This document shows, in pieces, positions 10,900-26,034 of a DNA stretch of 64,000 bases (positions within the stretch are counted from its first letter, which is position 1; each line of letters begins with the position of its first letter). This stretch comes from a virus. Below the pieces are notes generated by a model that was not told the origin of the DNA, searched no databases, and saw nothing but the letters and a program-made list of their open reading frames with translations. A program made the position numbers and the translations under genes. The stretch is taken from positions 14,549 to 78,548 of the IMG/VR virus record IMGVR_UViG_3300017917_003612. One strand, 5' to 3'.

Positions 10900-12396
10900 T
10901 TAAATGTTAAGTTTTTTAAGTTTGTATGTTGAAATTATTTTTCGTCTAAATTGTTCAACTTTGTTACGCTCACCTTGGGTGTAAGGTGTTGCAAAACCTT
11001 TATCTAATGTTCGTCCTTCATATATATAATCATCTAATGTAAGATTGCCTGGATTGTTGCAAGGAAACTTTTTTGGAATAAACTCGTTGACCAATCTATC
11101 TACCTGTTCATAATTAAGAAAATCATTCTCCCAATTTACCAAAGTTGGTTTGTATAATTTGTTAGAACGTCTGTAACCATATTTTGTATAATCTCTACCA
11201 AAATCAGACATGGAATTGTCTAATCCGTGTGAAATGTCGTTTTGATCAGGAATGCTCAGAGAAAACCAAACATGGTGTTGATCACTCCAATTTTGCTTTA
11301 ACCATGTCAGACTTTGATTGATAGTTTGCAAAGTTTCATAAGGTAGCCCTGCAATCATTGAAATAGTTCCTCTGTATCTGCGGTTGTTTGTTTTGAGAAA
11401 ATATTCTTTTATTTCAATCAAACCTTCTTTTAATTTTTGGCTGTCTATGCCTTTGCCTATAGTTTTTGCACTTTGGTGATTAAAACTTTCAATGCCATAA
11501 TAGTGCCCTCCAAAATTCATTCTAGCTAGATGAATTCTATCTTCGGGACGATTTAATAATAAATCGGCTCGTATAAAACCGGAAAAAAAAGGTTGAAAAG
11601 ACAATTGTTCAACAACATCACCATACTTTGCTATTTTTTCAAAACTATCATTAAAAGTTTCATCCACTACATAGTAGTTTTGTATACCAAATTTGTCATA
11701 GTTGTAATTTATGCTTCGTTTAAAGTCTTCTACGTCTTGTGTGTAATCTCCTTGTACGCCCAAAACTGGATAATAACAAAATTTACATTTAAAAATACAA
11801 CCTCTACTTAGCTCAATGTGTCCCCATTCCTCAGGTAAAATAAAATCCCTATCTTCAAAATCAATTGACATTTTGGGCTGAGGAAATGATTTGTCTGTTA
11901 CATTGGCCGAAATAACCTTTTTACCAATATGTTTTAAATCAAACTGTAATTTGTGTTTTGACCCATTGCCTGTGACAAACTTTAACAAGTGAACAATAGC
12001 CGACTCGCCGTACCCGGTAATATGATAATCTATATTTTTTGAATTTACATTGGGATAAGTTCCTCCTCCCCAAATAGTAACAACGTTTGGCCACTTGGAT
12101 TTGAACCAATTTAAAAAGTGATCTATATTCAAAGGCCATGATTGAAATATACAACTGAATGCAATAAATTTAGTTTTATTACTAACTCGTTGTAGACTTA
12201 TTTCTTTTAGTTCTTCGTAAGTAAATTCTGCCGCAAAATCAACTACTTCAACATCCCAATCCAATGATCGTAAATGATTGGCAATACGATGACCGCCGGC
12301 TCGTCGTCGGTGGTATTTGTTGTCTTGATCCGGTGTGCTAGGATAAGAATTGTGTTGATAGACCTGGAATATAATTCCATGGAAAGAGTTTGACAT
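10900..12396 (-). CDS. Radical SAM protein with B12-binding-like N-terminus
   Basis: SRGCIFKCKFC (CxxxCxxC), DETFN, GIES, IAGLPYET. Confidence 0.85.
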   Translation of the reverse strand: MSNSFHGIIFQVYQHNSYPSTPDQDNKYHRRRAGGHRIANHLRSLDWDVEVVDFAAEFTYEELKEISLQRVSNKTKFIAFSCIFQSWPLNIDHFLNWFKSKWPNVVTIWGGGTYPNVNSKNIDYHITGYGESAIVHLLKFVTGNGSKHKLQFDLKHIGKKVISANVTDKSFPQPKMSIDFEDRDFILPEEWGHIELSRGCIFKCKFCYYPVLGVQGDYTQDVEDFKRSINYNYDKFGIQNYYVVDETFNDSFEKIAKYGDVVEQLSFQPFFSGFIRADLLLNRPEDRIHLARMNFGGHYYGIESFNHQSAKTIGKGIDSQKLKEGLIEIKEYFLKTNNRRYRGTISMIAGLPYETLQTINQSLTWLKQNWSDQHHVWFSLSIPDQNDISHGLDNSMSDFGRDYTKYGYRRSNKLYKPTLVNWENDFLNYEQVDRLVNEFIPKKFPCNNPGNLTLDDYIYEGRTLDKGFATPYTQGERNKVEQFRRKIISTYKLKKLNI

Positions 12397-12408: not shown

Positions 12409-12774
12409 TTATACTGCAATTTTGCGCTGAGATCCGCGTCGCATCTCACCGCGCATGATTGTTGTTGCTACCAATATACCTTCACTTTTTATAAAAGGCA
12501 CAGTTACATCGGTTTCAAGATCAACCACTTGAATACTACTACCATCGGCCAAGTCTAGTAGAACATTTTTCTTTTTTAAAAGCAGCTTGGAGAAAAAATT
12601 TGCAACTTCTTGTAAACTTATAATTGGCGTATTTCTAGGATTAGAAATTTGATCAACAAAATGTGTAGTAATTTTTAAAGGTATACCTTCGGGCCGAAAT
12701 CTACTGTTTAACGCATCACTATAATGACGAGCCAATTGAGTATTGTTTTCCACAATAAAATTACCGGCTCGCAT
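12409..12774 (-). CDS. Putative virion-internal protein, possibly BECR-like RNase fold
   Basis: MRAGNFIVE N-terminus; THFVDQ...RN...VATTIMR. Confidence 0.55.
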   Translation of the reverse strand: MRAGNFIVENNTQLARHYSDALNSRFRPEGIPLKITTHFVDQISNPRNTPIISLQEVANFFSKLLLKKKNVLLDLADGSSIQVVDLETDVTVPFIKSEGILVATTIMRGEMRRGSQRKIAV

Positions 12775-12777
12775 TTC

Positions 12778-14772
12778 TTATGTTTTAATAATAAAGTAAA
12801 CTGATAGATACGGAGGCATGTTGGCATCAGTTCCTGAAGAACCGGTTGTACTAATACCTACGCTAATACCGGTGGTCGCGGTTGATGTAGCCAGTCCGGA
12901 TGTTCCTGTGCTTCTTGCGCCACTAAAATCAGCACCAGCAAATGTAGTTCCAGTTTGGTGACTGTGCCCTGGATCTGTTACAGTTGCAGTGTGCGTGTGA
13001 CTGACCACAACAGCATCTTTGCTACCACCAGTAGCACCTAATGCATATAATCCGCCAGCGCCTACTGGTAATCTGTTGGTATAATTAGGCAAATTAAATG
13101 TACTTGTGTTATCACCGACACCAAATGTAGTTCCAATTACGGCAAATAACGCAGCGTATGTGGTACGACTGACTGCGGTTCCATTACATAACAAATAACC
13201 TGTTGGCGCACTTAAAGTTGGCCACATCATCAAACTGCCAGTTGGTATACTATTGTTTTGAACAAATGCAGTGGTTGCCACTGCTGTATTAGAAGTTCCT
13301 GCTGGTAAAGTTGGTGTAACAATAGTGCCACCCACATGCAAATTACCACCAACACCTGCACCGCCTGCAATTGTCAATGCACCTGTTGTTGTAGAAGTGG
13401 CAGAGGTTGCAGCAGCAATTGAACTGTTGCCACCCAGTAACAAGTTGGCGGCTATTATTGCGTTTCCAACAATGCTAGCATTACCACCAATGTCCGCAGA
13501 GGTTCCTACACTTAAACTACCAGACAATGACGAAGATGCGGCATGAATTGTTCTAAATCGCATTCCGGTGCTACCAATATTTGAACTAATATTGGCAGTA
13601 GGAATAATGTCTGCACCAAGATAAATTTGTGCAATGTTGCTGTTGGTAGCAAAAATGTTTGCTGCTGTAACATTGCCTACCAAAAGATTTTCCGAAAATA
13701 TATTGCTCCAACGATTAGAAGTATTGCCTAATGTATAGCTTACATTGGCAATAGGAGTTATATTGCCTGAAAAATTAGCTACACCGGTTACTGATCCAGA
13801 CAATATGTCCACATAATTTTTAGTAGCCAGAGCAAGTGCAGGAGATGATGCAATTGGATTTGCATATGCTTCTGGTAACCCAGTTTGAAAATTTCCCCTC
13901 AAGAACGGAGTTTGTACACCGCCTGTTCGTAGACTCAAAACAAAATCACGGTTGTTGGTTTGATTTCGTAGCGTAACAACACCGCTGCTAACTGAACCCA
14001 CAAAATCACTGGCTGCACCAAATGTCAATCCTGAATCATTTGTCAAAGACAAGGAACCATTTAAAGTGCCCGAAACGTCATTGCGTAGGAAATTTGATCC
14101 GGCTATAGCTACGCCACTGACATATAAACTATTGGATACTTCTGAGTTTCCCCAAAAAGCCTGCCCTAAGGTACTGTTAAGATTTAGGCCTTTTCTAATG
14201 GTTGCAAAACCCGGAACGTCCGACACAAACGGACTATCTTTGCTCCATATGCCTACCAAAATATCATCTATAAAAAATTTAATAACAACAAATGTTGTAC
14301 TAGGTGGAGCATCTGTTACTGTGTCTGGAATAGCGCCCGAATTACCGGTGGCTGTTCTGCTTAAAGGCCCAATCAATCTCCATGTAGTGCCAGTATAAAT
14401 TTTTAATTGACCGTTTACTGTATCATACCACTGTTCGCCTGTGTAAGCGTTTGTAGGCGTACTAGCACTGAGAGTCATACCTGCTACAGTTTTCCAAATA
14501 GCATTGGCCGTGCCCTTAGTAGACGCGATGTTTACATTCAACAGTTTTGTAGTGCTGTTAAACCATAATTGACCAGGCAGCGGAGCAGTAGGCGCAGTAG
14601 CAAGGGCGAAATTTTCCATCAATCTGACCACATTTTGATTGATGAATAATCCGTAACCTTTATAGTTCTTGCCAACCAATGTCAGACTCGAGTTTGCACT
14701 GTCAGTGGTGTTATCTAGTAATCCACCGGTGATTAGCTCTGTTCCGTTGCTTAATGTAATATTATATGCCAT
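12778..14772 (-). CDS. Tail fibre/baseplate protein with C-terminal tail collar domain
   Basis: G/T/S/N-rich; IPTGSLMMW...PTGYLLCNG...YAALFAVIGTTFG...FNLP; ATAAATA upstream. Confidence 0.85.
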   Translation of the reverse strand: MAYNITLSNGTELITGGLLDNTTDSANSSLTLVGKNYKGYGLFINQNVVRLMENFALATAPTAPLPGQLWFNSTTKLLNVNIASTKGTANAIWKTVAGMTLSASTPTNAYTGEQWYDTVNGQLKIYTGTTWRLIGPLSRTATGNSGAIPDTVTDAPPSTTFVVIKFFIDDILVGIWSKDSPFVSDVPGFATIRKGLNLNSTLGQAFWGNSEVSNSLYVSGVAIAGSNFLRNDVSGTLNGSLSLTNDSGLTFGAASDFVGSVSSGVVTLRNQTNNRDFVLSLRTGGVQTPFLRGNFQTGLPEAYANPIASSPALALATKNYVDILSGSVTGVANFSGNITPIANVSYTLGNTSNRWSNIFSENLLVGNVTAANIFATNSNIAQIYLGADIIPTANISSNIGSTGMRFRTIHAASSSLSGSLSVGTSADIGGNASIVGNAIIAANLLLGGNSSIAAATSATSTTTGALTIAGGAGVGGNLHVGGTIVTPTLPAGTSNTAVATTAFVQNNSIPTGSLMMWPTLSAPTGYLLCNGTAVSRTTYAALFAVIGTTFGVGDNTSTFNLPNYTNRLPVGAGGLYALGATGGSKDAVVVSHTHTATVTDPGHSHQTGTTFAGADFSGARSTGTSGLATSTATTGISVGISTTGSSGTDANMPPYLSVYFIIKT

Positions 14773-14823
14773 TTTTTATTCTCACTACCCTTATTTATGC
14801 TGTTTTTACGGGTCTTGGCTATG

Positions 14824-15840
14824 TTATTTTTTGCGCCCACTTTTCATATTTGCACACCAGTGGTACATCTTACCTTTTTCGCCACCTGACCGTTTGGCTC
14901 GGGCTCTCAAACTGCTCACGCTACCTGCACAACTGGCACCAGCACGTTTTACACGACCCGGACGACTCTTTCCTTTTACTCGACCGTCAGCAAAATTTTC
15001 TGTTACAGGTTGATCTAAAAATTGTTGTACTGCTTGTAGATGATCACTGCCGGCCACATACACACCCTGCTTTCTTGTGGCTAAAAACTTGTCGCGTAGA
15101 TCATTTACAGACTTTGCTACACGGCCTGCACGATATGGATATTCTTCCCAGTTGTTGGGAAACATTAATTGCTCGCCCAATGTAAAAAACTTTTTAACAT
15201 TACGTTCTGTAGCAGGCGCTTGACTCATAGCAACAAAATCATATGGACCTTCACTGACAGATTGTAAAAACTTCGCCAAAGTTTCAGCATCGAACTGTCG
15301 GTCTGGGAAATAGTTGGTGCTAGGCTGTGTGCTTAAAATTCTATCAAAAATTGTAGAATCAGGGTCAGACCCAATCTTGCCTTCCACGGTGTCGTTTTCT
15401 TTTATATTGCTAAACAACACATACAGAAACGGGGCAGGATATCCTTTGATAGCAGGTGATAGCAAATCATCGTCCCAACTACCTTCATAATCGTCGATAA
15501 TACCTTTGGTAAGTTTTTGGTCCATACCGTTGCCTTCGTACCAGGCACCGTGACGTTCGGCAATGGCTCGTACTCGTTCAGCGTCCGAGTCTGACAGTTG
15601 TAACCGCTTGCCGTGTTGTTGACCCACAATTGCCACATCGTTGCCTATGTAGATCACATCACTGTGTTTGGCTTCTGTAACACTTTCACCCCCGCCACCA
15701 TCGCCACCGCTGCTGTCGCCAGACTCGCCACCGTAGGCACCGCTGCCATAATAACCGTAGCCAGGATACCAGTAACCGCCAAAATATCTATTTTTGCGTT
15801 TTTTCTTTTTGCGTTCGGTTACAAACTCTGCGGCTCTCAT
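14824..15840 (-). CDS. Putative capsid-targeted polyprotein with TIKI/EreA/ChaN-like domain and basic C-terminal module
   Basis: MRAAEFVTE; internal VTE linkers; VGQQHG, YEG, RD, AGSDHL. Confidence 0.6.
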   Translation of the reverse strand: MRAAEFVTERKKKKRKNRYFGGYWYPGYGYYGSGAYGGESGDSSGGDGGGGESVTEAKHSDVIYIGNDVAIVGQQHGKRLQLSDSDAERVRAIAERHGAWYEGNGMDQKLTKGIIDDYEGSWDDDLLSPAIKGYPAPFLYVLFSNIKENDTVEGKIGSDPDSTIFDRILSTQPSTNYFPDRQFDAETLAKFLQSVSEGPYDFVAMSQAPATERNVKKFFTLGEQLMFPNNWEEYPYRAGRVAKSVNDLRDKFLATRKQGVYVAGSDHLQAVQQFLDQPVTENFADGRVKGKSRPGRVKRAGASCAGSVSSLRARAKRSGGEKGKMYHWCANMKSGRKK

Positions 15841-15862
15841 TACATTCTCACTTGCATATAAA

Positions 15863-16780
15863 CTATGTTACTTCTTGCTCTTGAGGTTTTTTGAATACAC
15901 TATATATTTTTTGTATTCCAATTCCTTTTATTCCATTTGCATGTAATACATTTGCTACAAATGTTCCACAATTTTCAGCTCCTACTGAGTTAGTTGTAGG
16001 AACTGATACTGGTTTTGATAATGACACAATTTTTATGTTTTGTTTTGGAAACTCTGGGTCATCTGTAACTGCGTTGGTGACATATACATCATTGCCTTTA
16101 TGCCCACTCATTTGTATTTGTTTTCCGTCTTGAGTTATAAATCCAACATGGTCATAACTCCATCCTTTAGGTGTTTTATTACTGCGGGCAAAGAATATTT
16201 TGTCTGACAAATAGTTGCCAATTTCTTCCATTATTTTTTGTGGATTCAATTGATGCATTAGATTTCCCGCACCGGTTGGCACTGGTCCCCCGGACCCAAC
16301 AAATCCCCCCCGCACCGGTACACTTGAACTACCCCGGGCTGCTGGAGGAGAAATTTTAGCTACATCAGACGACGAAGCAAACACCACAGGTAATTTTGCT
16401 GTTTTCCATAACGGGTTATCTCTATCCATTCTTTTTTGTAATAAACCTAACGCAGAAATTCTATGAGCACCATCATCAAGTTTTCCGTCTACAGCTACAA
16501 TAGGTGGCAAAGTTTTTAATGACTCAGGATTGTCCTTTAAAAACTTTGCATATTCTACCGCTTTGGGAGTCACATTCCAACTAAAATCTTTTTTATCGTA
16601 ATCTCTAATTACATCTTTGTGATATGGTATTCCCTGTATACTTTTATGAATTTGTTTTAAAGTTAAATTTTGTTGATTTAGATTAGCATCAGGATTTAAT
16701 TGGGCAGCTTTACCAGAACTTGGCCCGGGTTGTGGTACTGATAAATCGTCAGCCTCTAGTATAAATTCGTATGCTCTCAT
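15863..16780 (-). CDS. Putative capsid-targeted protein: ParB/Srx-like plus permuted papain-like domain
   Basis: MRAYEFILE; PPIVAVDG..DGAHR; YDHVGF...NCGTFVANVL. Confidence 0.65.
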   Translation of the reverse strand: MRAYEFILEADDLSVPQPGPSSGKAAQLNPDANLNQQNLTLKQIHKSIQGIPYHKDVIRDYDKKDFSWNVTPKAVEYAKFLKDNPESLKTLPPIVAVDGKLDDGAHRISALGLLQKRMDRDNPLWKTAKLPVVFASSSDVAKISPPAARGSSSVPVRGGFVGSGGPVPTGAGNLMHQLNPQKIMEEIGNYLSDKIFFARSNKTPKGWSYDHVGFITQDGKQIQMSGHKGNDVYVTNAVTDDPEFPKQNIKIVSLSKPVSVPTTNSVGAENCGTFVANVLHANGIKGIGIQKIYSVFKKPQEQEVT

Positions 16781-18249
16781 AGATTCCTTTCCCAAATCAC
16801 AAAGGGATCATTTACTACTATTGTGCCGTCGGGTCTGGCCATATAATTGCCACTATGCAAGTCAACTGTAAAATTGTGCCGACGAGCAAATCTTTCAACT
16901 TCATACACAGTTTTTAATAAACCATCAGCTCGTTCAGGTCCGCCTAACAGATCAATAACTTCCTTTATATCTTCAAAGTACTGTGGATTGTAATCTGGTG
17001 CATAATAATCTTCTGCACTGGCAAATTCTGCATAGGCTTTAATTTTCTTGTATGCTGATTCAAAATTACCTCGACCTATTTGTTTAGTGACCTGATCAAT
17101 TTGTCCAACCAAGGTTCCAACTGTTTTAGGTAATTCTTGTAGTGTTTCCATTCGGGCTTGAATATAGTTTTTACCTTGAAATTTAAAACTTTCAAATGCA
17201 CTAAAACGAGGCAAGTGCGGATTGTCTTTGTTCTTGTTGCAGTAGTCGATCCAGTTGATAAACATACGCTGGTCAGGGCTGAATCCTTCTACACCTTTAC
17301 GATATCCAAACACAATATAAACTTGTCCATTGGGTTCAAGATATGCTTGTTTGTCTATTCCGCCGCCCAAGTATTTGTAACCTTTTTTGGCTAGAGCTTG
17401 GCTGATACCAACATGTATTGAGCCAGCCATTTCGTCAAGTGCTTCTTCAAATTGTGCAGAGTATCCAACATTGAACTGTGGTTTAGCTCCAGGAAAATTG
17501 GGCTGATTGACGCCGGCACTGAATCCTTTTCGTTGATATTGTGCCCCAACTCCTGTTACACCAAAATCCTTTTGTCCGCTAGCACTCAATGAAATAGAAC
17601 TGTCTTTGTCAACTGGTATATTGTAAGATCCTGATACAGATCCTCGGTCACCTATGTTTACACTGGCAGGACCATATCCAAGATTGATACCTCGTTGAGC
17701 TTCATAATCTCTCATGCCTCCGGGCATATCAGCTGATATGCCTAAATTCAGCCCTGTGTTTAAATTGCTGTACTGAGCACGTTGTAATCTTTTTTCTGGA
17801 TCCACGCTGGTTTGTGCTGTCCAATTGACTGGTTTTTCTTTTGGCATCGGCAAGTCAGGCAATTCGTCATCGTTTATAACCTGTCTGCTGACCATTTCTT
17901 CTAGGTGTGCAATTGCTTCGTCAGCTCTAATTGCTTTTGCGTAATCTTCTGGGCTGTCTATATCGTGCAAGCTAAAGCCCAGGCGCTTGAGCAACGGAAT
18001 CATTTTGTGTTCTTCTTCTTCACTGCCAAACGCAAACACAGTGTGCGGCACACCTTTGTTAAATGTTCTAGGATCTGCATCGTCTAAGTCACTCACTGCC
18101 ATGCCCAGCTTGTACCAGTCGTACACATCGCTCACATTGACCAAGGTAGTACCTTTGGGAAAACTCAACGGTGTGCCCGGATCACTTTTGAGGTACTGAT
18201 CTTCATCGTAATCGGGGTTATCTTCTAGTATAAATTCTCTTGCTCTCAT
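16777..18249 (-). CDS. Putative capsid-targeted polyprotein with C-terminal protein-kinase-like domain
   Basis: MRAREFILE; YLGGG, HLPRF, METL, DLHSGNYM...VVNDP. Confidence 0.7.
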   Translation of the reverse strand: MRAREFILEDNPDYDEDQYLKSDPGTPLSFPKGTTLVNVSDVYDWYKLGMAVSDLDDADPRTFNKGVPHTVFAFGSEEEEHKMIPLLKRLGFSLHDIDSPEDYAKAIRADEAIAHLEEMVSRQVINDDELPDLPMPKEKPVNWTAQTSVDPEKRLQRAQYSNLNTGLNLGISADMPGGMRDYEAQRGINLGYGPASVNIGDRGSVSGSYNIPVDKDSSISLSASGQKDFGVTGVGAQYQRKGFSAGVNQPNFPGAKPQFNVGYSAQFEEALDEMAGSIHVGISQALAKKGYKYLGGGIDKQAYLEPNGQVYIVFGYRKGVEGFSPDQRMFINWIDYCNKNKDNPHLPRFSAFESFKFQGKNYIQARMETLQELPKTVGTLVGQIDQVTKQIGRGNFESAYKKIKAYAEFASAEDYYAPDYNPQYFEDIKEVIDLLGGPERADGLLKTVYEVERFARRHNFTVDLHSGNYMARPDGTIVVNDPFVIWERNL

Positions 18250-20747
18250 CGTGCTGGTACCACCATAAATTCACCACTACCTAGTAGGCCTTGACCGCGC
18301 AGCCAATTTGCAGCATATTGATTGGCTTCGCCTTGATTGCTACGATGAACAAAACTATAAACTTCACGGTCGTTTTGATCTAACACTAGCCAACGGGTAT
18401 TTCCGGGTGGCAGGCTTTCTGTACCACGGGCAGCAGAACTCGCAGGATCTGCTTCTATCCTGTTTATTGTCCATCCGGCACGCTCCAGTCGATTTCTCAC
18501 AGCAGCCATGGCAGCATCAGCATTTGCTGCCGGAACCGTCATAGTATTGTTTCTCACTTCATCACCATAGGTCACCGTATAATCAACTCTATATTCTGTT
18601 TGCTCTCGTTGTTGAACTTCACCTTGATTGCGTGGCAAATCGTCTCTTGCTCGCATGAGTGGTCTAACATATACGGGATCGTCATATCCTGTCTGCTGTT
18701 GCCATCTTGCTGCGTGTCTTTCAGCATCTGCTACTGCGTTTCCGATACCGCTGATTACAGACACAACCTCATCGGTGTTTCTACTCACTACTTCCCAGTG
18801 CCCGGTAAATTCTTGATCACGGCTGGGTGTTTGCTGAACAGGTGGTTCACGCCAAATTGGCTGGGGCTCGCCCAATCTCGCTCTCAAGTTATATGCAGTT
18901 TCCTGACCGTCATATGTGCGATCGTGTGCGGCCACAATATCATCGAAGGCTGCATTGGCAAACTGATCAGGGAATCTTTGTACCGCAATGGTTCGAGCCT
19001 GGAATTCACTCATGGCTCGCACCCACACACCTCGTGGACTGTTTTCTACTTTGACATAGTAGAACTTTGGACTCATTTGATTCATGTCATCCGTGGTAGC
19101 GGCTCGTAAGGGTTGTACTTTCCATCCGTGTTCTTGTGCCCATTCTTCCATACTACTACTACCAATGTTTAATCGCCATTTTTTAATTGCTTCCACAACA
19201 GCGTCCAACTCGGTCTTACCTAACACTTCCGTACCTTGGCTTTGATAAGGACTGGTACGATCGCCTGTGACCCGCCATACCAACAATATATCCTTGGCAC
19301 CCTGTGTGAGTTTATCAACTTTTCTCTTGCCCTGTATCTGTCTTACAAATGCTTTCAAGGCACTTTGTGGTAATTCACCGGCGGCATATTTTGCAAAGTA
19401 TTGAATGGTATCGTCTTCCTTGCCTTGTGTGAGTGTTTTGTACAATTTCTTGTAGTATTCTTGTTTGAACTCCGCAGGCTTGGTAGCAACATCTAATGCC
19501 ACTACTGCTCGCAACATTGTGTTTTTAACTGCAGAGAGATCATCACCCAGCCAGTCACCACCCGGACCACGAAACTCTATCCAGTCGCCTCTATTGTTGA
19601 TACTACTATATTTTTGTGTTTGACCTGTGTGTAAAACTTTGCTGGCTATGTCACTTAGTCCACTCTGAAACTGACGCATCATTTCGGTCACACGCTCAGG
19701 TTCGGTGCGGGCAATGATTTTAATACTTTTCAAAATACTCTTACAATAGGTATTACCTTCACGACCAAATTGTTCTAGGATATAGTTATCGCCCAGGAAC
19801 ATGGCCAGTTTAACAAAGTCTAGATTTTGTTGACCGGGTACACTCACATTCATGTGCAGGCCAGTGCTGTCGTTAGTGTAAGCACCCACTCTACCGGCCC
19901 ATTTAGCCACTTTGTCGATGTCCGACAACATTTCGTCCACAGTTAGTGGAGGGCTTACAAACTCTAGTCCACCATCACCTGGGTCGCCATGCAAGCTTGA
20001 ATCCGGCTCTACCACATAGTGTCCAGGTCGTCTAGTGGCACCGTGATAACTGCTACTGGCATTTACCGGACGACCTATGGCTTGACTGAAGTCATCGGCA
20101 ACATCATTGATACTGACACCGCTACCGCCGTAGTAATCATCTGGTTGGGTCCAGTATGGCCATTCTAGGCTGTGTTCATTGGCGAAATCACTCATCATGG
20201 TGATGCCATTATCTTCTAGCCATTCTTCAAACTTTGAGTCAAGATTTTCGTTGTATTCATCTCTCAATTGATCGCGTATGTTGTCTTCGTTTTCGTCAAT
20301 GAAATTTTGTAAAGCTGCAATATACTCTTCCTCAGTTTCGTAATCGTCTCTGTCGACATTGTCGCCTGCTATTTCTGTTACACGATCTTGTCCTGCCTCC
20401 GAAGCCATGTATTGTTCTTGATCTTCGTCGGTCCACGCAAGGAAGTTCTCATTAAGTTCATCAATGGCTCTTTGTATGCTACGAGTGCTATTGCTAACTT
20501 CGCCGCCGCGGAAAAAGCTCATTATGTCATTGGTCCAGCCTCGGCCAGTAGGAAAACTTTCATCAGCATCGTAATCCGGTTCTGATTCAAATTCATTTTC
20601 TTCTTCACCCTGGGCATTGGGCACAATCAGTTCAAATTCCATGCCAACTCTGGCGTCAATGTTCTTGGCCATTTTGCTCAAGTTGGTTGGGCTCATTTTG
20701 AGCTCGAACAATTCATCTTCGGTTAGTTCAAATTCGCGAAATCTCAT
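18246..20747 (-). CDS. Putative amidoligase (COOH-NH2 ligase type 2) with acidic insert and C-terminal repeats
   Basis: GMEFE, DSSL...GLEFVSPPL, STGLHMNVS, KYSSIN, IEFR. Confidence 0.8.
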   Translation of the reverse strand: MRFREFELTEDELFELKMSPTNLSKMAKNIDARVGMEFELIVPNAQGEEENEFESEPDYDADESFPTGRGWTNDIMSFFRGGEVSNSTRSIQRAIDELNENFLAWTDEDQEQYMASEAGQDRVTEIAGDNVDRDDYETEEEYIAALQNFIDENEDNIRDQLRDEYNENLDSKFEEWLEDNGITMMSDFANEHSLEWPYWTQPDDYYGGSGVSINDVADDFSQAIGRPVNASSSYHGATRRPGHYVVEPDSSLHGDPGDGGLEFVSPPLTVDEMLSDIDKVAKWAGRVGAYTNDSTGLHMNVSVPGQQNLDFVKLAMFLGDNYILEQFGREGNTYCKSILKSIKIIARTEPERVTEMMRQFQSGLSDIASKVLHTGQTQKYSSINNRGDWIEFRGPGGDWLGDDLSAVKNTMLRAVVALDVATKPAEFKQEYYKKLYKTLTQGKEDDTIQYFAKYAAGELPQSALKAFVRQIQGKRKVDKLTQGAKDILLVWRVTGDRTSPYQSQGTEVLGKTELDAVVEAIKKWRLNIGSSSMEEWAQEHGWKVQPLRAATTDDMNQMSPKFYYVKVENSPRGVWVRAMSEFQARTIAVQRFPDQFANAAFDDIVAAHDRTYDGQETAYNLRARLGEPQPIWREPPVQQTPSRDQEFTGHWEVVSRNTDEVVSVISGIGNAVADAERHAARWQQQTGYDDPVYVRPLMRARDDLPRNQGEVQQREQTEYRVDYTVTYGDEVRNNTMTVPAANADAAMAAVRNRLERAGWTINRIEADPASSAARGTESLPPGNTRWLVLDQNDREVYSFVHRSNQGEANQYAANWLRGQGLLGSGEFMVVPAR

Positions 20748-21133
20748 TCTATTATTTCCGGATTGGCCTTGCCATACAATTTCATAAGGTAGCCTGCTAC
20801 TGCATCGGCCTCTTGTTCAACGGGCGAGCCAGGATAGCTTTGGTCACCGTTTACTCTACCATCTTCGTACTGCTTTCTGTGAGTAAGTTCGTGAGCTACA
20901 GTACGCATTATATCAATTAGATTTCTGTTGCCGGTATAAATCCACATCGTGTCTTCGGCATCGTCGTAATAACCGGTTCTGTGTTGGTCTGGACCTTCCT
21001 TGGCATCTTGGAAACGAATCTTAGGCAATGCTTCTTGAATGTCCAATCGATCAACACACCATGCCACAAAGTCGCGCAGTTGTGCTTCGTGATCACGAAA
21101 GGTGCTTTCTGTAATAAATTCTTGTGCTCTCAT
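20744..21133 (-). CDS. Zincin-like metallopeptidase
   Basis: MRAQEFITE; TVAHELTH...EQEA (HEXXH plus E). Confidence 0.75.
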   Translation of the reverse strand: MRAQEFITESTFRDHEAQLRDFVAWCVDRLDIQEALPKIRFQDAKEGPDQHRTGYYDDAEDTMWIYTGNRNLIDIMRTVAHELTHRKQYEDGRVNGDQSYPGSPVEQEADAVAGYLMKLYGKANPEIIE

Positions 21134-21657
21134 TTTTTTCTAGATCTCGCTTCTCGTTCGGCCCTCATTAGATTAGGCACATAATCAAATTCCGAACCCA
21201 ACATGGGATTGTTCAGCTGATATGCTGCGGCTAGATCGTCAGGCACTCCATGCATGCCACCAGTATAACCGCCGCCCGCGCCTTTCAAAGACTGTGGTGC
21301 GATTTTAGGTGTTGTGGCAGCGGGAGTTTTTAGTGCATCTGCGCTTTGACTTCTATATTCAGATGGTGTCAATTTACGACCTGCTCTATCGTCTGCTCTA
21401 ATCCAGTCGCCTATACCAGCAAAATTTTGGTTGAGGCGAGCTTCACGCTCGGCACTTCTTTGTTGCGCGATTGCTCTATCAATTGCATCGTTTTCGGCCT
21501 TTATAGCGGCTGTAATTCTTTTATGTTTCTCACTGCCAGGTTCACCAATGGTGGCTCTTTTAACATCCCTTTTCGGCTGCTGCTGAGACAGTTTATCCCA
21601 ATCTAAGCCTAAAAAGCTATTTTCACCAGCTTCGGTTATAAATTCTCTAGCTCGCAT
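21130..21657 (-). CDS. Putative capsid-targeted hypothetical protein
   Basis: Probable start MRAREFITE at 21657. Confidence 0.7.
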   Translation of the reverse strand: MRAREFITEAGENSFLGLDWDKLSQQQPKRDVKRATIGEPGSEKHKRITAAIKAENDAIDRAIAQQRSAEREARLNQNFAGIGDWIRADDRAGRKLTPSEYRSQSADALKTPAATTPKIAPQSLKGAGGGYTGGMHGVPDDLAAAYQLNNPMLGSEFDYVPNLMRAEREARSRKK

Positions 21658-22297
21658 CTTGTTTATCCTGTGAGCCAGCAATCATTTTACCATAGTCCCG
21701 GCTCTGTATATTTTGCGGTGTGTGCTCGCGCTGTCCTTTGACAATTTCAAATGCTCTACGCAGACCTTTGGCTACCACGTCCAATCCATCTTCATCTGCT
21801 TGATATTTGATACCAATACCACCACTTTGTTCCCATTCTGTCAGCACACTGTTTCTATCATCAACTAAAATATTGGGTGTTCCATCTGCTTGTTTGGCAT
21901 ACTTGCCCTTGCGGCCGGTAATACGGATCACTCTAGGCTGCGGGTTTAAGTTTTCTGCTATCCAGGCTCGCTTCATGGCTTCTGAGTTTTGATTATCACC
22001 GCGTAAGGGACTTGAACAGATATTGTAGTATCCAAACACTTCCACAACCATAGCCACCAATCTATCTGCTGACGGAAATTTTGGTAATCTGTAAAAGAAA
22101 TCAGTGCCACGCATCTGTGCAATTACAGGCTCGCGCAGTTCTGCAGGAATACTGCGGTAGTCTGCTCGGCCACTTTTAACGTCAGCGGGCACTCCGGCCA
22201 ATTTGGCATATTCTGAGAAGAAATCTGCTAGTACGCCGTCCATGTCTAGGAATATTTCAGGACGGCCAGGGGGTTTTTCTAGTTCGTATAAGCGCAT
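21647..22297 (-). CDS. 5'(3')-deoxyribonucleotidase-like HAD hydrolase (NT5C family)
   Basis: FLDMDGVLADF, CSSP, K, ILVDD; ATG 4 nt after ATAAATA. Confidence 0.85.
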   Translation of the reverse strand: MRLYELEKPPGRPEIFLDMDGVLADFFSEYAKLAGVPADVKSGRADYRSIPAELREPVIAQMRGTDFFYRLPKFPSADRLVAMVVEVFGYYNICSSPLRGDNQNSEAMKRAWIAENLNPQPRVIRITGRKGKYAKQADGTPNILVDDRNSVLTEWEQSGGIGIKYQADEDGLDVVAKGLRRAFEIVKGQREHTPQNIQSRDYGKMIAGSQDKQDAS

Positions 22298-22301
22298 TTT
22301 G

Positions 22302-22308
22302 TATTTAT
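22302..22308 (-). promoter_or_regulatory. Late-type promoter ATAAATA heading the cargo operon
   Basis: ATAAATA-caaa-ATG. Confidence 0.55.
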
Positions 22309-22311
22309 TGA

Positions 22312-23251: not shown

Positions 23252-23809
23252 TTACTGTTTGCTCAAATCTTCAAATGCTTTGTCTGATCTTTCCACAGCA
23301 TTTTTGCTAGCACGGAGTTGATCTTTACGTTTCATGATAGCGTTAGCTTCACCTGTTGGTAATGCCAACAGTACATAAGACCTAAACCTGCCATTTTCTG
23401 CTACACGTACAGTTTCTACTATCTCGGCACCGGATATGTCAACTCGTCGACACATACTACGAATGGCCACTTCACTGTTTTCTGCGCTAGCAGATTCTGT
23501 GTCATTCATGTACATTTTGCTAGATTTATCTACCTCACCACCTGCTGCCATACATATCGAGCTAAGAGCAATAGTCTTGGCCTTCATGTCTGCCATTGCA
23601 AAATCTCTGCTTACAGCCGAGCCATTAGCATAAACAGCATTCTTGCTTTCGGGCAGTTTGCTCATCCATTTAGGAGCTCGATCAATTGCACGTTCAGCGG
23701 CCTTGTCCTGGCGTTCGCGCTCGGCATCTGCTCGTTTGTCATAAACATTGGTTGTGCCGCATGCAACAAGAACCGTTGCAACAGTCAACATCAAAAACAA
23801 TTTTTTCAT
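23252..23809 (-). CDS. LPP20-like lipoprotein; probable start MKKLFLML
   Basis: Lipobox LVAC; APKWM, YANGSAVS..FAMA..KA. Confidence 0.7.
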   Translation of the reverse strand: MKKLFLMLTVATVLVACGTTNVYDKRADAERERQDKAAERAIDRAPKWMSKLPESKNAVYANGSAVSRDFAMADMKAKTIALSSICMAAGGEVDKSSKMYMNDTESASAENSEVAIRSMCRRVDISGAEIVETVRVAENGRFRSYVLLALPTGEANAIMKRKDQLRASKNAVERSDKAFEDLSKQ

Positions 23810-23817
23810 ATCTAACC

Positions 23818-23937
23818 TCATTTTGATTGAATCCAATCTCCAACACGACTCAGATCTCGCCCGGCACCTGAAATCGCGCCACCTAAAGTACCACAACCCG
23901 TTAGGGTAAACAACAGAAAAACAAGTAAAGTTTTCAT
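23818..23937 (-). CDS. Entericidin-like 39-aa lipoprotein, not in ORF track
   Basis: MKTLLVFLLFTLTGCGTLGGAISGAGRDLSRVGDWIQSK; ATG 6 nt after TATAAT. Confidence 0.7.
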   Translation of the reverse strand: MKTLLVFLLFTLTGCGTLGGAISGAGRDLSRVGDWIQSK

Positions 23938-23943
23938 AATTCA

Positions 23944-23972
23944 ATTATAATAAAATGATCAAAATTTGTCAA
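23944..23972 (-). promoter_or_regulatory. Consensus sigma70 promoter, probably leaderless
   Basis: TTGACA-17-TATAAT. Confidence 0.8.
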
Positions 23973-24564
23973 CCACTGTCCACTCATTTCTTATTACACA
24001 TCCCATTATTTCCCATTGCATTAGAGTGTTGTTTTTTGGATTTACATCCGATTCTAAAAAATATCTACATATGGTTCCTTTGTGTTCAAACGGTGCAGGT
24101 TCTGCAGGATGAGGCTTTAGTTCACTTACTTGAAAAGTATCATTCTTTTTGAGTCCTTTGCGCAATTGCGGCGTTTGAAAATCGTTACAATACAGGGTCT
24201 GGCTAGACTGCACTGCTATGCCTTGTATTTTTTCTAAAATTTTAGTGCGTCCAACTTGCATGGCCTGACTGCAGATTTGATCAGTACTGTCCGTAATAAA
24301 CCCTTGACTTTCACCTCTGGCGTCATACCATTTGTTATTGATGTTGGCTTTAAACAAAATTGTACAGATCTGCTGATTGTTTTGTGTTTTGACAAATTTT
24401 TGATAATCAGCTATTTCGCGAATTTCCGTTTTAGTCTGATTGGTTAAAACAGATTCTTGATAACATTCTGCTACAGCCAAACCAGGAAATCCAAAAATTA
24501 GTGCGAATTTAAACGCTGCTCTCGTTCTAGCAAGTATTTTTGCTCTGAATCTGTGATTGGACAT
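23959..24564 (-). CDS. Secreted Cys-containing hypothetical protein
   Basis: Signal-like ...GLAVA-EC; six Cys. Confidence 0.65.
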   Translation of the reverse strand: MSNHRFRAKILARTRAAFKFALIFGFPGLAVAECYQESVLTNQTKTEIREIADYQKFVKTQNNQQICTILFKANINNKWYDARGESQGFITDSTDQICSQAMQVGRTKILEKIQGIAVQSSQTLYCNDFQTPQLRKGLKKNDTFQVSELKPHPAEPAPFEHKGTICRYFLESDVNPKNNTLMQWEIMGCVIRNEWTVVDKF

Positions 24565-24869
24565 TGTTGCCTTATCTCCCTTTGTGCATGTTTGATCATA
24601 GCTTCATGTTTGAAATTCAATGTATCTGTGCTGTCTTGTGTAGTTCCATTGTAGGCATTTGAAAGAATACCAACTACACTGGTCATTTGAAAAGCCACTT
24701 TTAAGCGATCCCATTGACTGTATTTCTGGCTTTCCAAAAATTTATACTGTTCTTCTCGACGACTACAATCTACTTTAAATGTGCTCAGTTCAGTAAAATT
24801 CATCCTGGAAGGTGCAGTTGTGCATGCCCATTGCCCTAGACACCCAATAATTATTATCAGTTTTTTCAT
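24498..24869 (-). CDS. Putative lipoprotein
   Basis: MKKLIIIIGCLGQWAC. Confidence 0.6.
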   Translation of the reverse strand: MKKLIIIIGCLGQWACTTAPSRMNFTELSTFKVDCSRREEQYKFLESQKYSQWDRLKVAFQMTSVVGILSNAYNGTTQDSTDTLNFKHEAMIKHAQREIRQQCPITDSEQKYLLEREQRLNSH

Positions 24870-25078
24870 TTGCAATCTTTTTGAAGTTTCCAGTATGCTC
24901 TACGTAAATTTCTACGAGTCTCTATGTCATTGTCAGACAAAAGAGACTCTGATCGAGCTATTAAAGATTCTTGATGTTTTTTATTATAACAATCTGAAAA
25001 CCATAAATTGGTTTCCGGTGTGTGTCTAGTGGCACACGCCGATACAAATATTGTTAAAACTAAAACAAATCTTTTCAT
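24866..25078 (-). CDS. Putative lipoprotein
   Basis: Lipobox in MKRFVLVLTIFVSAC. Confidence 0.65.
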   Translation of the reverse strand: MKRFVLVLTIFVSACATRHTPETNLWFSDCYNKKHQESLIARSESLLSDNDIETRRNLRRAYWKLQKDCK

Positions 25079-25239
25079 TTTGTTTTGTTGGGCAAAACAA
25101 CAGATTTAAAAATAGATAAAGCAGTGTTTTCATTGCAGCCGGCATTTCTTGCAATATATCTAACTGCATCGCGTGTGTTTAATTGCAGAATAAAAACAGC
25201 TTCGTCGGCAAATCGTTGTGCTTTGGTCATAATATCTCC

Positions 25240-25614
25240 TTACCAAGATGAGTTGTAAAAAACTTTTAAACCTGAAAAAATTTCTGCTCGTGCTCGACGG
25301 ACAAATTCTAAATCTTGTTCACGATAATAATCATCGCTATTACTACCAAAGAAAAAACCAGAAGTAGATGGGAGCCAGCCATTTTTTACATCCTCCTCGA
25401 GTTGATCTAGGTCTTCCCATGTTAACTCAAGTTCAACACCATTAAACATAGGATCGTCTGAGCTAGAAAGCGGAAAGCCTTTTTGGTGCCATAACTGTTC
25501 CATCCAACCGTGTAGATTAGGATGTTTACGCCAGTAGGCAATTTCTCGTTGTGCGCCAGTGCCCCACTCTTCATTTGCTTTTGCAGCAGCATAAGCGTAC
25601 ATATCTAAACCCAT
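25240..25614 (-). CDS. Hypothetical phage protein
   Basis: MGLDMY...YWRKHPNLHGWM...GFFFG...YNSSW. Confidence 0.8.
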   Translation of the reverse strand: MGLDMYAYAAAKANEEWGTGAQREIAYWRKHPNLHGWMEQLWHQKGFPLSSSDDPMFNGVELELTWEDLDQLEEDVKNGWLPSTSGFFFGSNSDDYYREQDLEFVRRARAEIFSGLKVFYNSSW

Positions 25615-25656
25615 TTGTGTCTCCAAAAATTACAAAGTAGAACTATTATATCTAAT

Positions 25657-26034
25657 TTAGGAATTAGAGTCAATGGGCTTTTTTGGTTTTAATTTCACTA
25701 CCGTGAGTTTGGTGTTTTTATTGATAGGAGGTGGATCGTTTAATTTCTCTCCAAATTCTCGTCCCACATAGTATTCACATAATCTATGCCTGCACATGGT
25801 GGGAATATCTTCGAAGCCAGGTTCTAATAGAAACTGATAAGGACTTCGTCCCCAGGTGCTATTTTTAATAAATGTGTAATAACTTCTGCGGTGTTCTTTA
25901 TTTGAAGGATTAAAAACCGTAGCAGGTCTACAGTTGAGAAGTAGTTTATTCACGATTTTAATAAAAAAGTTAGTAAGGATTATATAGTAACACAAAGAAA
26001 AAGCCCTGTCAAGCAGGGCTTTAGAGTGTTGCAT
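25657..26034 (-). CDS. Hypothetical protein; start uncertain
   Basis: RPATVFNPSNKEHR...WGRSP..FLLE. Confidence 0.6.
   Translation of the reverse strand: MQHSKALLDRAFSLCYYIILTNFFIKIVNKLLLNCRPATVFNPSNKEHRRSYYTFIKNSTWGRSPYQFLLEPGFEDIPTMCRHRLCEYYVGREFGEKLNDPPPINKNTKLTVVKLKPKKPIDSNS

What the first reader, a model, noticed from the sequence alone, without database searches (positions are those of the whole stretch)
12409..22308. Operon of putative capsid-packaged effectors sharing an MRAxEF(I/V)xE N-terminal tag
Seen: consecutive, otherwise unrelated genes start MRLYELE (22297), MRAREFITE (21657), MRAQEFITE (21133), MRFREFELTE (20747), MRAREFILE (18249), MRAYEFILE (16780) and MRAAEFVTE (15840). 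MRAGNFIVE (12774) and MRKYINLFE (63021) are similar. Four junctions are ATGA overlaps and an ATAAATA box heads the run. Known: T4 internal proteins use a ~10-aa capsid-targeting sequence (MKTYQEFIAE) removed by the prohead protease after (I/L)xE. Inference: a modular loading system that packages nucleotidase, metallopeptidase, amidoligase, kinase, ParB/papain-like and TIKI-like enzymes for injection with the DNA.
Basis: partly seen in the sequence, partly recalled or inferred. Interest (0 to 1): 0.85.

Follow-up and report, generated by a model that had tools for sequence, protein, structure and literature searches.

The report
Capsid-loading tag on phage cargo enzymes
An uncultured giant T4-like phage puts the same nine-residue "load me into the head" peptide, ending in a head-protease cutting site, on a row of unrelated enzymes, so it probably packs them into the capsid, cuts them free and injects them with its DNA, although no cutting or packaging has been measured for this phage.

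Summary
Strict MRAx(E/N)F(I/V)xE occurs six times in the six-frame translation of the 78.5-kb contig (1e-4 expected). All six open consecutive minus-strand genes; two more carry variants. Without the tag the eight proteins are unrelated.

The window is about 22% of a ~350-kb T4-superfamily jumbo phage. All nine related contigs fetched carry runs of tagged genes with different cargo. A single-codon-pattern scan of IMG/VR hit its 120-stretch limit. All six large or related tag-bearing records that could be tested encode a T4 gp21-type (Peptidase_S77) prohead protease.

Cargo is modular. The same module starts either after the tag's last Glu or after an internal (V/L/I/M)xE. One module has P1=E in 108/108 contexts and hydrophobic P3 in 101/108. 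Close relatives gain or lose modules exactly there. The amidoligase homologue in cultured Atu_ph07 is a virion protein.

Best reading: a T4-type capsid-targeting sequence with protease-jointed cargo.

Not supported:
- the "TIKI-like" label;
- MRKYINLFE as a tag.

The zincin label is weak, and packaging, cleavage and injection are untested.

This scan has noted the same theme before on other DNA (AI notes, not evidence).

The parts
22302..22309 (-). AATAAATA box, T4-late-promoter-like, with 4 nt between the box and the first ATG of the run
   Evidence: (A/C)ATAAATACAAA-ATG is conserved in L001-L003 although the upstream flanks differ, and L001 has a terminator-like hairpin just before it. ATAAATA-N4-ATG occurs 3 times in the window against 0.58 expected.
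21647..22297 (-). 216-aa HAD-type 5'(3')-deoxyribonucleotidase with a degenerate tag MRLYELE (22277-22297)
   Evidence: phrog_2643, E 1.1e-18. The DMDGV motif is visible. The N-terminus is conserved as MRLYELEQ / MRLFEIEQ in relatives. A canonically tagged NT5C exists elsewhere.
21130..21657 (-). 175-aa basic protein (pI 9.5) of unknown function; tag MRAREFITE at 21631-21657
   Evidence: No Pfam or PHROG match. No homologue among the fetched loci.
20744..21133 (-). 129-aa HExxH protein, possibly a small zincin; tag MRAQEFITE at 21107-21133
   Evidence: VAHELTH motif. Weak DUF3920 (18 bits, cut-off 27) and DUF6782 matches. Orthologues with the tag occur in L001 and L003.
18246..20747 (-). 833-aa amidoligase protein; 10-residue tag variant MRFREFELTE at 20718-20747; Amidoligase_2 domain at 19671-20120
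   Evidence: PF12224, 38 bits against a cut-off of 22. Relatives start MRYREFELTE / MRAREFELTE. The homologue AUZ94978 (CDS196) is in the Atu_ph07 virion proteome.
16777..18249 (-). 490-aa two-part cargo: tag MRAREFILE (18223-18249), N-terminal part of unknown function, junction LDE273 (17431-17433), then a kinase-like module (16780-17430)
   Evidence: phrog_15752 (T7 gp0.7-type kinase), E 4.4e-7, on residues 282-483. In L002 the same module is a separate gene, MRAADFTTE|MAGSIH, whereas here it reads ...EALDE|MAGSIH.
15863..16780 (-). 305-aa two-domain cargo: tag MRAYEFILE (16754-16780), ParB/Srx-fold domain (about 16352-16693), disordered linker, junction IME185 (16226-16228), then an NlpC/P60-type papain-like module (15866-16225)
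   Evidence: AF2 model. VIA Z 6.0 to sulfiredoxin, 5.4 and 5.1 to ParB-like proteins; Z 6.3, 5.7 and 5.0 to NlpC/P60-type peptidases. Foldseek top rows are Srx/ParB. Motifs DGAHR, DHVGF and NCGTF are present. The C-terminal module recurs at 80-92% identity in many other architectures. The L001 orthologue lacks it.
14824..15840 (-). 338-aa three-module cargo: tag MRAAEFVTE (15814-15840) plus a basic Gly/Tyr-rich stretch, junction VTE56 (15673-15675), a 225-aa conserved domain of unknown fold family (14998-15672), junction VTE281, then a basic C-terminal NFADG module (14827-14997, pI 11.6)
   Evidence: The stretch boundaries of 1,663 homologues fall at about 57-58, 278 and 277-338. The L001 orthologue lacks exactly the middle module. 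The AF2 model of the middle domain has pLDDT 94.
12778..14772 (-). 664-aa tail-collar fibre protein, untagged, lying inside the run
   Evidence: PF07484 Collar, E 2.9e-21, and many PHROG tail-fibre families. It is syntenic in L001 and L003.
12409..12774 (-). 121-aa basic protein of unknown function; tag variant MRAGNFIVE at 12748-12774
   Evidence: Orthologues start MRVGEFLNE (L001) and MRLTEFLIE (L003). It matches only PHROGs of unknown function.

Best explanation
The shared peptide MRAxEF(I/V/L)xE is this phage lineage's version of the T4 capsid-targeting sequence (CTS).

Proposed mechanism:
1. The run of genes is transcribed late, probably from a T4-late-type ATAAATA box.
2. The N-terminal tag brings each product into the scaffolding core of the assembling prohead.
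3. Once the shell closes, the gp21-type (Peptidase_S77) prohead protease cuts after the tag's last Glu (P3 = I/V/L, P1 = E). It also cuts at the same kind of (V/L/I/M)xE site between modules of multi-module cargo.
4. This frees separate enzymes and small basic peptides inside the head.
5. They leave with the DNA at the next infection and act on the new host before any phage gene is expressed.

Shown here:
- the tag, its non-random distribution and its conservation at peptide level;
- its attachment to unrelated, exchangeable modules;
- the equivalence of the tag end and internal junctions;
- the presence of the protease in tag-bearing genomes;
- the presence of one cargo homologue in the virion of a cultured relative.

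Inferred: binding to the core, cleavage, ejection, and what each enzyme does in the host.
For: (1) Six strict tags against 1e-4 expected, all at ORF starts in one run. Codons vary. The cargo proteins are otherwise unrelated.

(2) The tag resembles the T4 CTS MKTYQEFIAE (bioRxiv 10.1101/2021.01.19.427310) in length, position and the E-F-I-x-E end. T4 head proteases cut C-terminal to Glu (PMC5694885). Stand-alone homologues of one cargo domain start MKSFKQYITE / MKTFLQFLNE, which bridges the two tags.

(3) All 9 related contigs carry runs of tagged genes with different cargo sets. An IMG/VR scan for one codon version of the tag reached its 120-stretch limit, and all 80 listed loci hold a real tagged ORF. 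That gives 215 distinct tagged proteins in 46 single-linkage families.

(4) Peptidase_S77 is found in relative G003, next to portal, core, scaffold and major capsid genes. It is also found in 5 of 5 large tag-bearing records of 245-524 kb. In the complete 338-kb G008, about 9 tagged ORFs lie at 5 separate places, as expected for a trans-acting address.

(5) Junction grammar. The kinase, ParB-like, Cys-rich and NFADG modules each begin either right after a tag or after an internal PhixE. NFADG has P1 = E in 108 of 108 contexts and P3 = V/L/I/M in 101 of 108, with P2 variable. HSP boundaries in the window's proteins fall at such sites. The L001 orthologues lack whole modules exactly at the junctions.

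(6) A cargo census finds ADP-ribosyltransferase (as in T4 Alt), GNAT, kinase of polyvalent proteins, ParB and peptidases. This is the domain set of proteins known or predicted to be injected (PMC5512222).

(7) The Atu_ph07 homologue of the amidoligase (E 2e-23) is encoded two genes from the portal gene. It was detected in purified virions with 14 peptides and 30% coverage.

(8) The tag is disordered in the AF2 model, as expected for a removable leader.
Against: There is no proteomic, structural or genetic data for this phage or any tag-bearing relative.

The window's own contig holds no head genes or protease, because it is a 22% fragment. The protease link therefore rests on relatives.

The cultured relatives Atu_ph07 and RsoM2USA lack the tag.

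Some tags lack the Glu at position 9 (MRAKEFVKK..., MRAREFVPR...), so cleavage cannot be universal.

Two tagged proteins in relatives carry a Tat export signal right after the tag. That fits packaging only if they are exported after injection.

The invariant Glu before NFADG could belong to the module rather than to a cut site.

The nucleotidase carries only a degenerate tag.
Confidence: 0.66

Rival explanations
1. The tagged proteins are loaded into the prohead and cut, but they are assembly or head-internal components rather than injected effectors. They could be core or scaffold parts, DNA-charge-neutralising peptides, or enzymes that act on capsid or DNA inside the particle.
For: T4 core proteins gp22, gp67 and gp68 are also cut at Glu sites and mostly expelled (PMC5694885). 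Several products are small and very basic: the NFADG module has pI 11.6, and the ~125-aa family ends in KGYKRK. An untagged tail-fibre gene sits inside the run.
Against: The cargo is dominated by enzymes typical of host takeover and of injected polyvalent proteins: kinase, ADP-ribosyltransferase, GNAT, ParB-type and peptidases. Cargo sets turn over quickly between close relatives, which is unusual for essential structural parts.
Confidence: 0.17
2. The tag is an N-terminal signal for something other than the capsid, such as export, a chaperone (for example the phage DnaK) or regulated degradation. The Glu junctions would then be cut by another protease, for example the small HExxH protein of the cluster.
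For: Two tagged proteins in relatives continue directly into a Tat signal. The window encodes a DnaK homologue and a tagged HExxH protein. MPTase domains are proposed to process polyvalent proteins (PMC5512222).
Against: The tag is acidic and hydrophilic, and only 2 of 90 cargoes carry any export signal. The (V/L/I/M)xE junction rule matches S77-type head proteases, not zincins. The protease was present in every large tag-bearing record tested. A cargo homologue is physically in a virion.
Confidence: 0.09
3. The shared N-terminus has no targeting role. It is either a recombination scar or cassette boundary reused when genes are swapped, or a translation-start optimum for tightly coupled genes.
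For: Four genes start in ATGA overlaps, which force an A-starting second codon. Modules are clearly shuffled by recombination.
Against: Synonymous codons vary while the peptide is kept. Position 4 is free. Tags with CGA or CGC Arg codons occur without ATGA overlaps. SD-like motifs are equally frequent before tagged (28%) and untagged (32%) genes. The tag is kept at dispersed loci in a complete genome and across 46 protein families.
Confidence: 0.06

Closest known systems
Phage T4 capsid-targeting sequence on internal proteins IPI, IPII, IPIII and on Alt, removed by prohead protease gp21 (Mullaney & Black 1996; PMC3012670; PMC5694885)
   Same: A leader of about 10 residues, M-(K/R)-x-x-(x)-E-F-I-x-E, shared by otherwise unrelated proteins and ending in a hydrophobic-x-Glu protease site. 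The phage lineage belongs to the T4 superfamily and has an S77 protease. The cargo set varies between relatives. Cargo elsewhere in the clade includes an ADP-ribosyltransferase like Alt, and small basic proteins like the IPs.
   Different: The consensus is distinct (MRAxEFIxE, 9 residues). Here it sits mostly on enzymes arranged in one operon. Cargo is often a chain of modules joined by the same kind of cut site and shuffled module by module, which is not described for T4. Nothing has been tested experimentally.
Propeptide-bearing ejection and inner-body proteins of giant phages phiKZ, 201phi2-1 and SPN3US, cut at (S/A/G)-x-E by an S77-type protease (PMC5694885, PMC10052503)
   Same: They are jumbo phages. 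Many head-internal proteins are processed after Glu by a gp21 homologue, multiple cut sites occur within one protein, and paralogues share N-termini.
   Different: Those propeptides are long (often over 100 residues) and are not one short universal tag. Their P3 preference is small residues rather than V/L/I. They belong to a different phage group.
Polyvalent proteins of phages and conjugative elements (Iyer et al. 2017, PMC5512222)
   Same: The domain vocabulary is the same (ParB-like, papain-like and zincin peptidases, kinase, ART, GNAT, lysozymes). They are predicted to be delivered with the DNA, and unrelated activities are combined in one polypeptide.
   Different: Here the domains are mostly separate genes or short chains. 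Each chain is headed by a short address tag and jointed at head-protease sites, rather than being one giant fusion anchored by MuF-type domains.
Phage P1 Dar system: the N-terminal 30 residues of DarB direct proteins into the capsid (PMC9024508)
   Same: An N-terminal packaging signal is sufficient to load an anti-defence enzyme into the head.
   Different: The phage and the signal are unrelated, the signal is longer, loading depends on other Dar proteins, and no shared tag spans many cargoes.

Membership tests
T4-type capsid-targeting-sequence (CTS) cargo system | One short N-terminal peptide shared by otherwise unrelated proteins | tested here: met
   Six strict and two variant tags against 1e-4 expected. 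No similarity remains without the tag. There are 215 tagged proteins in 46 families across IMG/VR loci.
T4-type capsid-targeting-sequence (CTS) cargo system | The tag ends in the prohead-protease site (hydrophobic P3, Glu P1) | tested here: met
   The tags end I/V/L-x-E at residues 7-9. Among 195 homologues retrieved through their cargo, E9 is present in 42% and I/L/V7 in 59%. This is sequence evidence only.
T4-type capsid-targeting-sequence (CTS) cargo system | The phage encodes a gp21-type (Peptidase_S77) prohead protease with a T4-type head module | tested here: inconclusive
   It is absent from the window's own 78.5-kb contig, which is a 22% fragment. It is present in relative G003 with portal, core, scaffold and MCP genes, and in 5 of 5 large tag-bearing records.
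T4-type capsid-targeting-sequence (CTS) cargo system | The tagged proteins are physically inside the capsid | not testable with these tools
   Only indirect evidence exists: Atu_ph07 CDS196, a homologue of the 833-aa cargo, was detected in virions with 14 peptides. That homologue lacks this tag.
T4-type capsid-targeting-sequence (CTS) cargo system | The tag is removed by the protease during head maturation | not testable with these tools
   This is inferred from the equivalence of the tag end and internal junctions and from module indels at junctions.
Polyvalent proteins (Iyer et al. 2017) | Two to fifteen domains of disparate activity in one polypeptide, drawn from the characteristic domain set | tested here: inconclusive
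   The window's proteins have 1-3 modules. Homologous modules occur in proteins of up to 1,852 aa. The domain set overlaps. The tag-plus-junction grammar is not part of that definition.
Amidoligase_2 (PF12224) | Match above Pfam's curated cut-off | tested here: met
   38 bits against a cut-off of 22, E 2.3e-9, residues 210-359 of the 833-aa protein.
HAD-type 5'(3')-deoxyribonucleotidase (NT5C) | Family profile match plus HAD motif I (DxDG) | tested here: met
   phrog_2643, E 1.1e-18. FLDMDGV is visible in the sequence. Pfam NT5C itself did not report this protein.
T7 gp0.7-type / polyvalent-protein kinase | Profile match to a kinase family | tested here: inconclusive
   phrog_15752, E 4.4e-7, on residues 282-483. 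There is no Pfam hit and no PDB sequence hit.
ParB/sulfiredoxin fold | The fold, plus the DGxHR-type motif | tested here: met
   The model of residues 30-143 has pLDDT of about 90. VIA gives Z 6.0 (6ky4, rmsd 4.2, 80 aligned), 5.4 and 5.1, followed by a run of ParB-family rows. Foldseek's top rows are Srx/ParB with probability up to 0.91. The DGAHR motif is present. The Z values are moderate.
NlpC/P60-type (H-box/NC) papain-like peptidases | The fold, plus a His ... Asn-Cys catalytic motif | tested here: met
   VIA gives Z 6.3 (3kw0, rmsd 3.3, 103 aligned), 5.7 (YiiX) and 5.0 (TseH), followed by PPPDE, PLAAT4 and Aichivirus 2A. DHVGF and NCGTF are present. The Z values are moderate and the model pLDDT is 55-89.
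TIKI/TraB/erythromycin-esterase-like | Shared fold with solved members | tested here: inconclusive
   With a pLDDT-94 model, Foldseek against PDB found nothing at E <= 0.001. The best VIA-wide Z was 4.3, to unrelated folds. In BFVD a TraB-family row appears only at E 0.11 and TM 0.21.

The most novel reading that the evidence does not exclude
A large, so far uncultured clade of T4-superfamily jumbo phages uses a plug-in grammar for capsid cargo: the address tag MRAxEFIxE plus (V/L/I/M)xE joints. The prohead protease then doubles as a polyprotein maturase, and modules are swapped between phages exactly at its cut sites.

If so, the tag is a sequence-only flag for hundreds of families of proteins injected with the DNA, which are candidate first-minute anti-defence and takeover factors. 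Some of them would be re-exported to the periplasm by the host Tat system after injection.
Probability: 0.5. Interest if true: 0.75.

Novelty: new variant of a known kind. Interest (0 to 1): 0.62.

Why it matters
Proteins that enter the cell with the phage DNA act before any phage gene is read. They are therefore prime candidates for counter-defence and host takeover, yet they are hard to find without virion proteomics of a cultured phage.

If this tag is a capsid address, such proteins can be listed from sequence alone in thousands of uncultured jumbo-phage contigs. They include enzymes such as amidoligase, kinase, ADP-ribosyltransferase, GNAT, deaminase and ParB-like proteins, and a very abundant family of small basic proteins.

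It would also extend the T4 CTS principle in three ways:
- from a few small internal proteins to operons of enzymes and chains of modules;
- to a second job for the head protease, cutting cargo chains apart;
- to module exchange at the cut sites as an evolutionary mechanism.

Finally, it would offer new tags for protein delivery by phage particles.

Tried and rejected
- Megablast of the region against cultured phages found no match.
- Peptidase_S77 and Gp23 searches in the window's own contig found none. The contig is a 22% fragment, so this is uninformative.
- A tag pattern search in the full Atu_ph07 and RsoM2USA records found no match, so no cultured carrier of this tag is known.
- tblastn of the abundant ~125-aa tagged family against cultured phages found none.
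- A full-text search for six tag strings found no paper.
- Fold searches for the 225-aa domain did not support the TIKI/TraB idea.
- PDB sequence searches with the 305-aa and 490-aa proteins found none.
- The ESM Atlas look-up of the 305-aa protein gave only weak ParB_N hints.
- A translation-signal explanation was rejected, because SD-like motifs are equally common before tagged and untagged genes.
- MRKYINLFE as a tag was rejected. The protein is a PGDYG-domain protein and does not fit the motif.
- TATAAATA and AATAAATA counts as such are not enriched in the window. Only the geometry directly before start codons is enriched.

Full report
WHAT THE WINDOW IS. The window is bases 14549-78548 of a single 78,548-base IMG/VR virus contig (GC 38.8%) that CheckV rates 22% complete, which implies a phage of roughly 350 kb. 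It carries ribonucleotide reductase, a DnaK homologue, several radical-SAM genes, virion structural genes and a two-piece tmRNA. No cultured phage is close at DNA level. The most similar cultured phages at protein level are the T4-superfamily jumbo phages Atu_ph07 and RsoM2USA.

THE OBSERVATION. On the minus strand, consecutive genes start as follows:
- MRLYELE (22297)
- MRAREFITE (21657)
- MRAQEFITE (21133)
- MRFREFELTE (20747)
- MRAREFILE (18249)
- MRAYEFILE (16780)
- MRAAEFVTE (15840)
- an untagged tail-collar fibre gene (12778-14772)
- MRAGNFIVE (12774)

The strict pattern MRA.[EN]F[IV].E occurs six times in the six-frame translation of the whole contig against 1e-4 expected, and nowhere outside this run. 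Synonymous codons differ between copies and position 4 is free, so the peptide is what is conserved, not the RNA. Without the first ten residues no two of the eight proteins are significantly alike (best E 0.068). The four ATGA overlaps and the ATAAATA box are present as described. MRKYINLFE at 63021 is not a member. It does not fit the motif and belongs to a PGDYG-domain protein between the reductase genes.

THE TAG IS A LINEAGE-WIDE FEATURE. Nine IMG/VR contigs that encode a relative of the 833-aa protein (53-83% identity) all have runs of genes starting M-R-A-x-(E/D)-F-x-x-E. The cargo sets differ from the window's and from each other. Each of the 80 listed loci holds a genuine ORF starting with the tag, and many of these contigs are 177-524 kb long. 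Pooled, there are 215 distinct tagged proteins in 46 single-linkage families. The largest family has 112 members. These are basic proteins of about 125 aa, often in tandem pairs, and the family has more than 1,000 90%-identity clusters in metagenomes with no annotation. Among 195 homologues retrieved through their cargo part, 43-51% have R2, A3, E5, F6 and E9. No paper in the library contains the tag strings. The cultured phages Atu_ph07 and RsoM2USA lack the tag.

LINK TO A T4-TYPE HEAD AND PROTEASE. The window's own fragment has no head module. Relative G003 (166 kb, same tagged cluster) encodes, in T4 order, a portal, a small 72-aa protein, a core protein, a Peptidase_S77 (gp21-type) protease (91 bits), a scaffold-like protein and a gp23-type capsid protein. 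Five of five large tag-bearing records (245-524 kb; three are at least 99% complete) also encode Peptidase_S77. In the complete 338-kb genome G008, about nine tagged ORFs lie at five separate places. In G003 they lie only in the cluster. A dispersed address shared by unrelated proteins is what a trans-acting targeting signal predicts. In T4 the CTS is MKTYQEFIAE and is cut off once, while the cargo stays in the head. [quoted passage not shown] T4-family and giant-phage head proteases cut C-terminal to Glu. The present tag shares the length, the position and the E-F-I-x-E end. Stand-alone homologues of one cargo domain begin MKSFKQYITE, MKTFLQFLNE and MNTFKQYLEE, which are intermediate between the two consensus sequences.

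CARGO IS BUILT FROM MODULES JOINED AT THE SAME KIND OF SITE. Homologues of the 305-aa protein mostly share only its C-terminal 120 residues, at 80-92% identity. That module sits inside many different architectures (with GNAT, deaminase, GH19, DUF6321 and others), with modules separated by a recurring (Q)GVAE|G linker. The same module begins either directly after a tag or after an internal hydrophobic-x-Glu:
- Kinase module: ...EALDE|MAGSIH here, against MRAADFTTE|MAGSIH as a separate gene in L002.
- ParB-like module: MRAYEFILE|ADDLSVPQPGPSS, against GVAEE|VPQPGPSS.
- Cys-rich module: MKASEFITE|KWSQKYK, against GVAEG|WSQKYK.
- Basic NFADG module: MRAREFITE|NFADG, against ...PVTE|NFADG.

For NFADG, 108 distinct upstream contexts give P1 = E in 108, P3 = V/L/I/M in 101, and a variable P2. 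Homology boundaries within the window's proteins fall at such sites: residues 56 and 281 of the 338-aa protein, 273 of the 490-aa protein and 185 of the 305-aa protein. In the closest relative L001, the orthologue of the 338-aa protein lacks exactly the 225-residue middle module and keeps a single ESV(T/D)E|NFADG joint. The orthologue of the 305-aa protein is identical for about 126 residues and then lacks the peptidase module. The tag's last Glu therefore behaves as one instance of a general joint, as expected if both are cut by the same Glu-specific head protease.

WHAT THE CARGO IS.
- Confirmed: a HAD-type deoxyribonucleotidase (phrog_2643, 1e-18) and an Amidoligase_2 domain above Pfam's cut-off.
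- Moderately supported: a T7 gp0.7-type kinase module (4.4e-7).
- Moderately supported: a ParB/sulfiredoxin-fold domain (Z 6.0, 5.4, 5.1) followed by an NlpC/P60-type papain-like domain (Z 6.3, 5.7, 5.0), with DGAHR and His/Asn-Cys motifs.
- Weak: the 129-aa HExxH protein as a zincin.
- Not supported: the TIKI-like label. The 225-residue domain folds confidently (pLDDT 94) but matches no solved structure and only an uncharacterised protein of an uncultured phage in BFVD. It is a widespread domain of unknown function, with 1,663 representatives.

A Pfam census of 90 tagged proteins from the wider set adds ADP-ribosyltransferase, GNAT, GH19, SLT, LysM, a kinase of polyvalent proteins, DUF6321, DUF6934 and two Tat signals. 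This is largely the vocabulary of proteins known or predicted to be injected with phage DNA (T4 Alt, polyvalent proteins).

EXPERIMENTAL ANCHOR. In Atu_ph07, the homologue of the 833-aa amidoligase protein (E 2e-23) is AUZ94978. It is encoded two genes from the portal gene. By gene order and mass it is CDS196, 57.94 kDa. In the published virion proteome, CDS196 was detected with 14 unique peptides and 30% coverage. Its N-terminus (MRWQDISSKKLTE|LKM), that of RsoM2USA (MKLIQKLSE|LKM) and the window's (MRFREFELTEDELFE|LKM) each place an L-x-E directly before the conserved start of the domain.

ALTERNATIVES.
- Translation-start explanation: unlikely. Codons vary, and SD-like motifs are equally frequent before tagged (28%) and untagged (32%) genes.
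- Export or chaperone signal: this does not fit an acidic leader, and only two of 90 cargoes carry an export signal. Those two Tat-bearing proteins are nevertheless unexplained.
- Loaded but not injected: the proteins could serve assembly or charge neutralisation. This cannot be excluded and may hold for the small basic modules.

VERDICT. The most likely explanation is a T4-type capsid-targeting tag, combined with head-protease-jointed modular cargo, in an uncultured clade of T4-superfamily jumbo phages (confidence about 0.66 for loading plus cleavage, and lower for injection and effector roles). Relative to the literature this is a new variant of a known kind. The principle is that of T4. The tag consensus, the enzyme-rich operon, the module chains and the exchange at cut sites are not described in the papers searched. 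Earlier AI notes of this scan report the same theme in other genomes. They are leads, not evidence, and I did not test them.

Noticed in passing
window 3095-3108, 22295-22308, 41130-41143 (minus strand): ATAAATA-N4-ATG occurs three times against 0.58 expected. A T4-late-promoter-like box this close to the start codon would give leaderless or nearly leaderless late mRNAs. TATAAATA at 54824-54831 sits 6 nt before another start.
   Followed up: partly
L009:19016-19657 and L161:17068-17961 (G008 297068): Two tagged proteins in relatives run straight from the tag into a twin-arginine export signal (MRSYEFISEIDRRGFLGALGAG, MRISEIIVEAPTDVSRRGFLKGLA). Pfam TAT_signal matched 2 of the 90 cargoes. They may be injected proteins that the host then exports, or a hint that not every tagged protein is packaged.
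   Followed up: partly
L025:797-1168 and L025:1168-1542 (and many other loci): A very abundant family of basic proteins of about 125 aa carries the tag. They are usually tandem paralogue pairs ending ...PFKGYKRK. The family has more than 1,000 90%-identity clusters in metagenomes, no Pfam family and no cultured-phage match. They are possible counterparts of the small basic T4 internal proteins.
   Followed up: partly
window 23252-26034 (minus strand): A row of small lipoprotein-like genes (lipobox Cys; one weak LPP20 match) sits just upstream of the tagged run. It is syntenic with the run in L001, L002 and L003.
   Followed up: no
L005:7994-12805 and L009:5932-10800, L009:13855-18606: In more distant relatives the amidoligase region lies inside giant proteins of about 1,600 aa that start MHIDELENYNL / MNINELDSYDL / MKFNEIDPLYE. 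These are different short acidic leaders at the head of the same cargo cluster.
   Followed up: no
L013:13449-13667 (G003) and L010:2950-3183 (Atu_ph07 CDS199): A conserved protein of 72-78 aa lies next to the portal gene and starts M(V/K)LTE|L. The Atu_ph07 copy was detected in the virion. It may be a gp67-like core peptide with the same cut-site grammar.
   Followed up: no
window 49628-51535: A full-length DnaK/Hsp70 homologue, about 65% identical to DnaK sequences annotated in Acinetobacter and Salmonella records (phrog_22485, E 1.8e-277).
   Followed up: no
window 62584-63027: A PGDYG-domain protein is encoded between the two ribonucleotide reductase genes. This is the MRKYINLFE protein of the finding, and it is not tagged.
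   Followed up: yes
window 10900-12396: A radical-SAM protein with a weak B12-binding domain match lies directly downstream of the last tagged gene. It is one of several radical-SAM genes in the window (33209-34507, 41160-42716).
   Followed up: no
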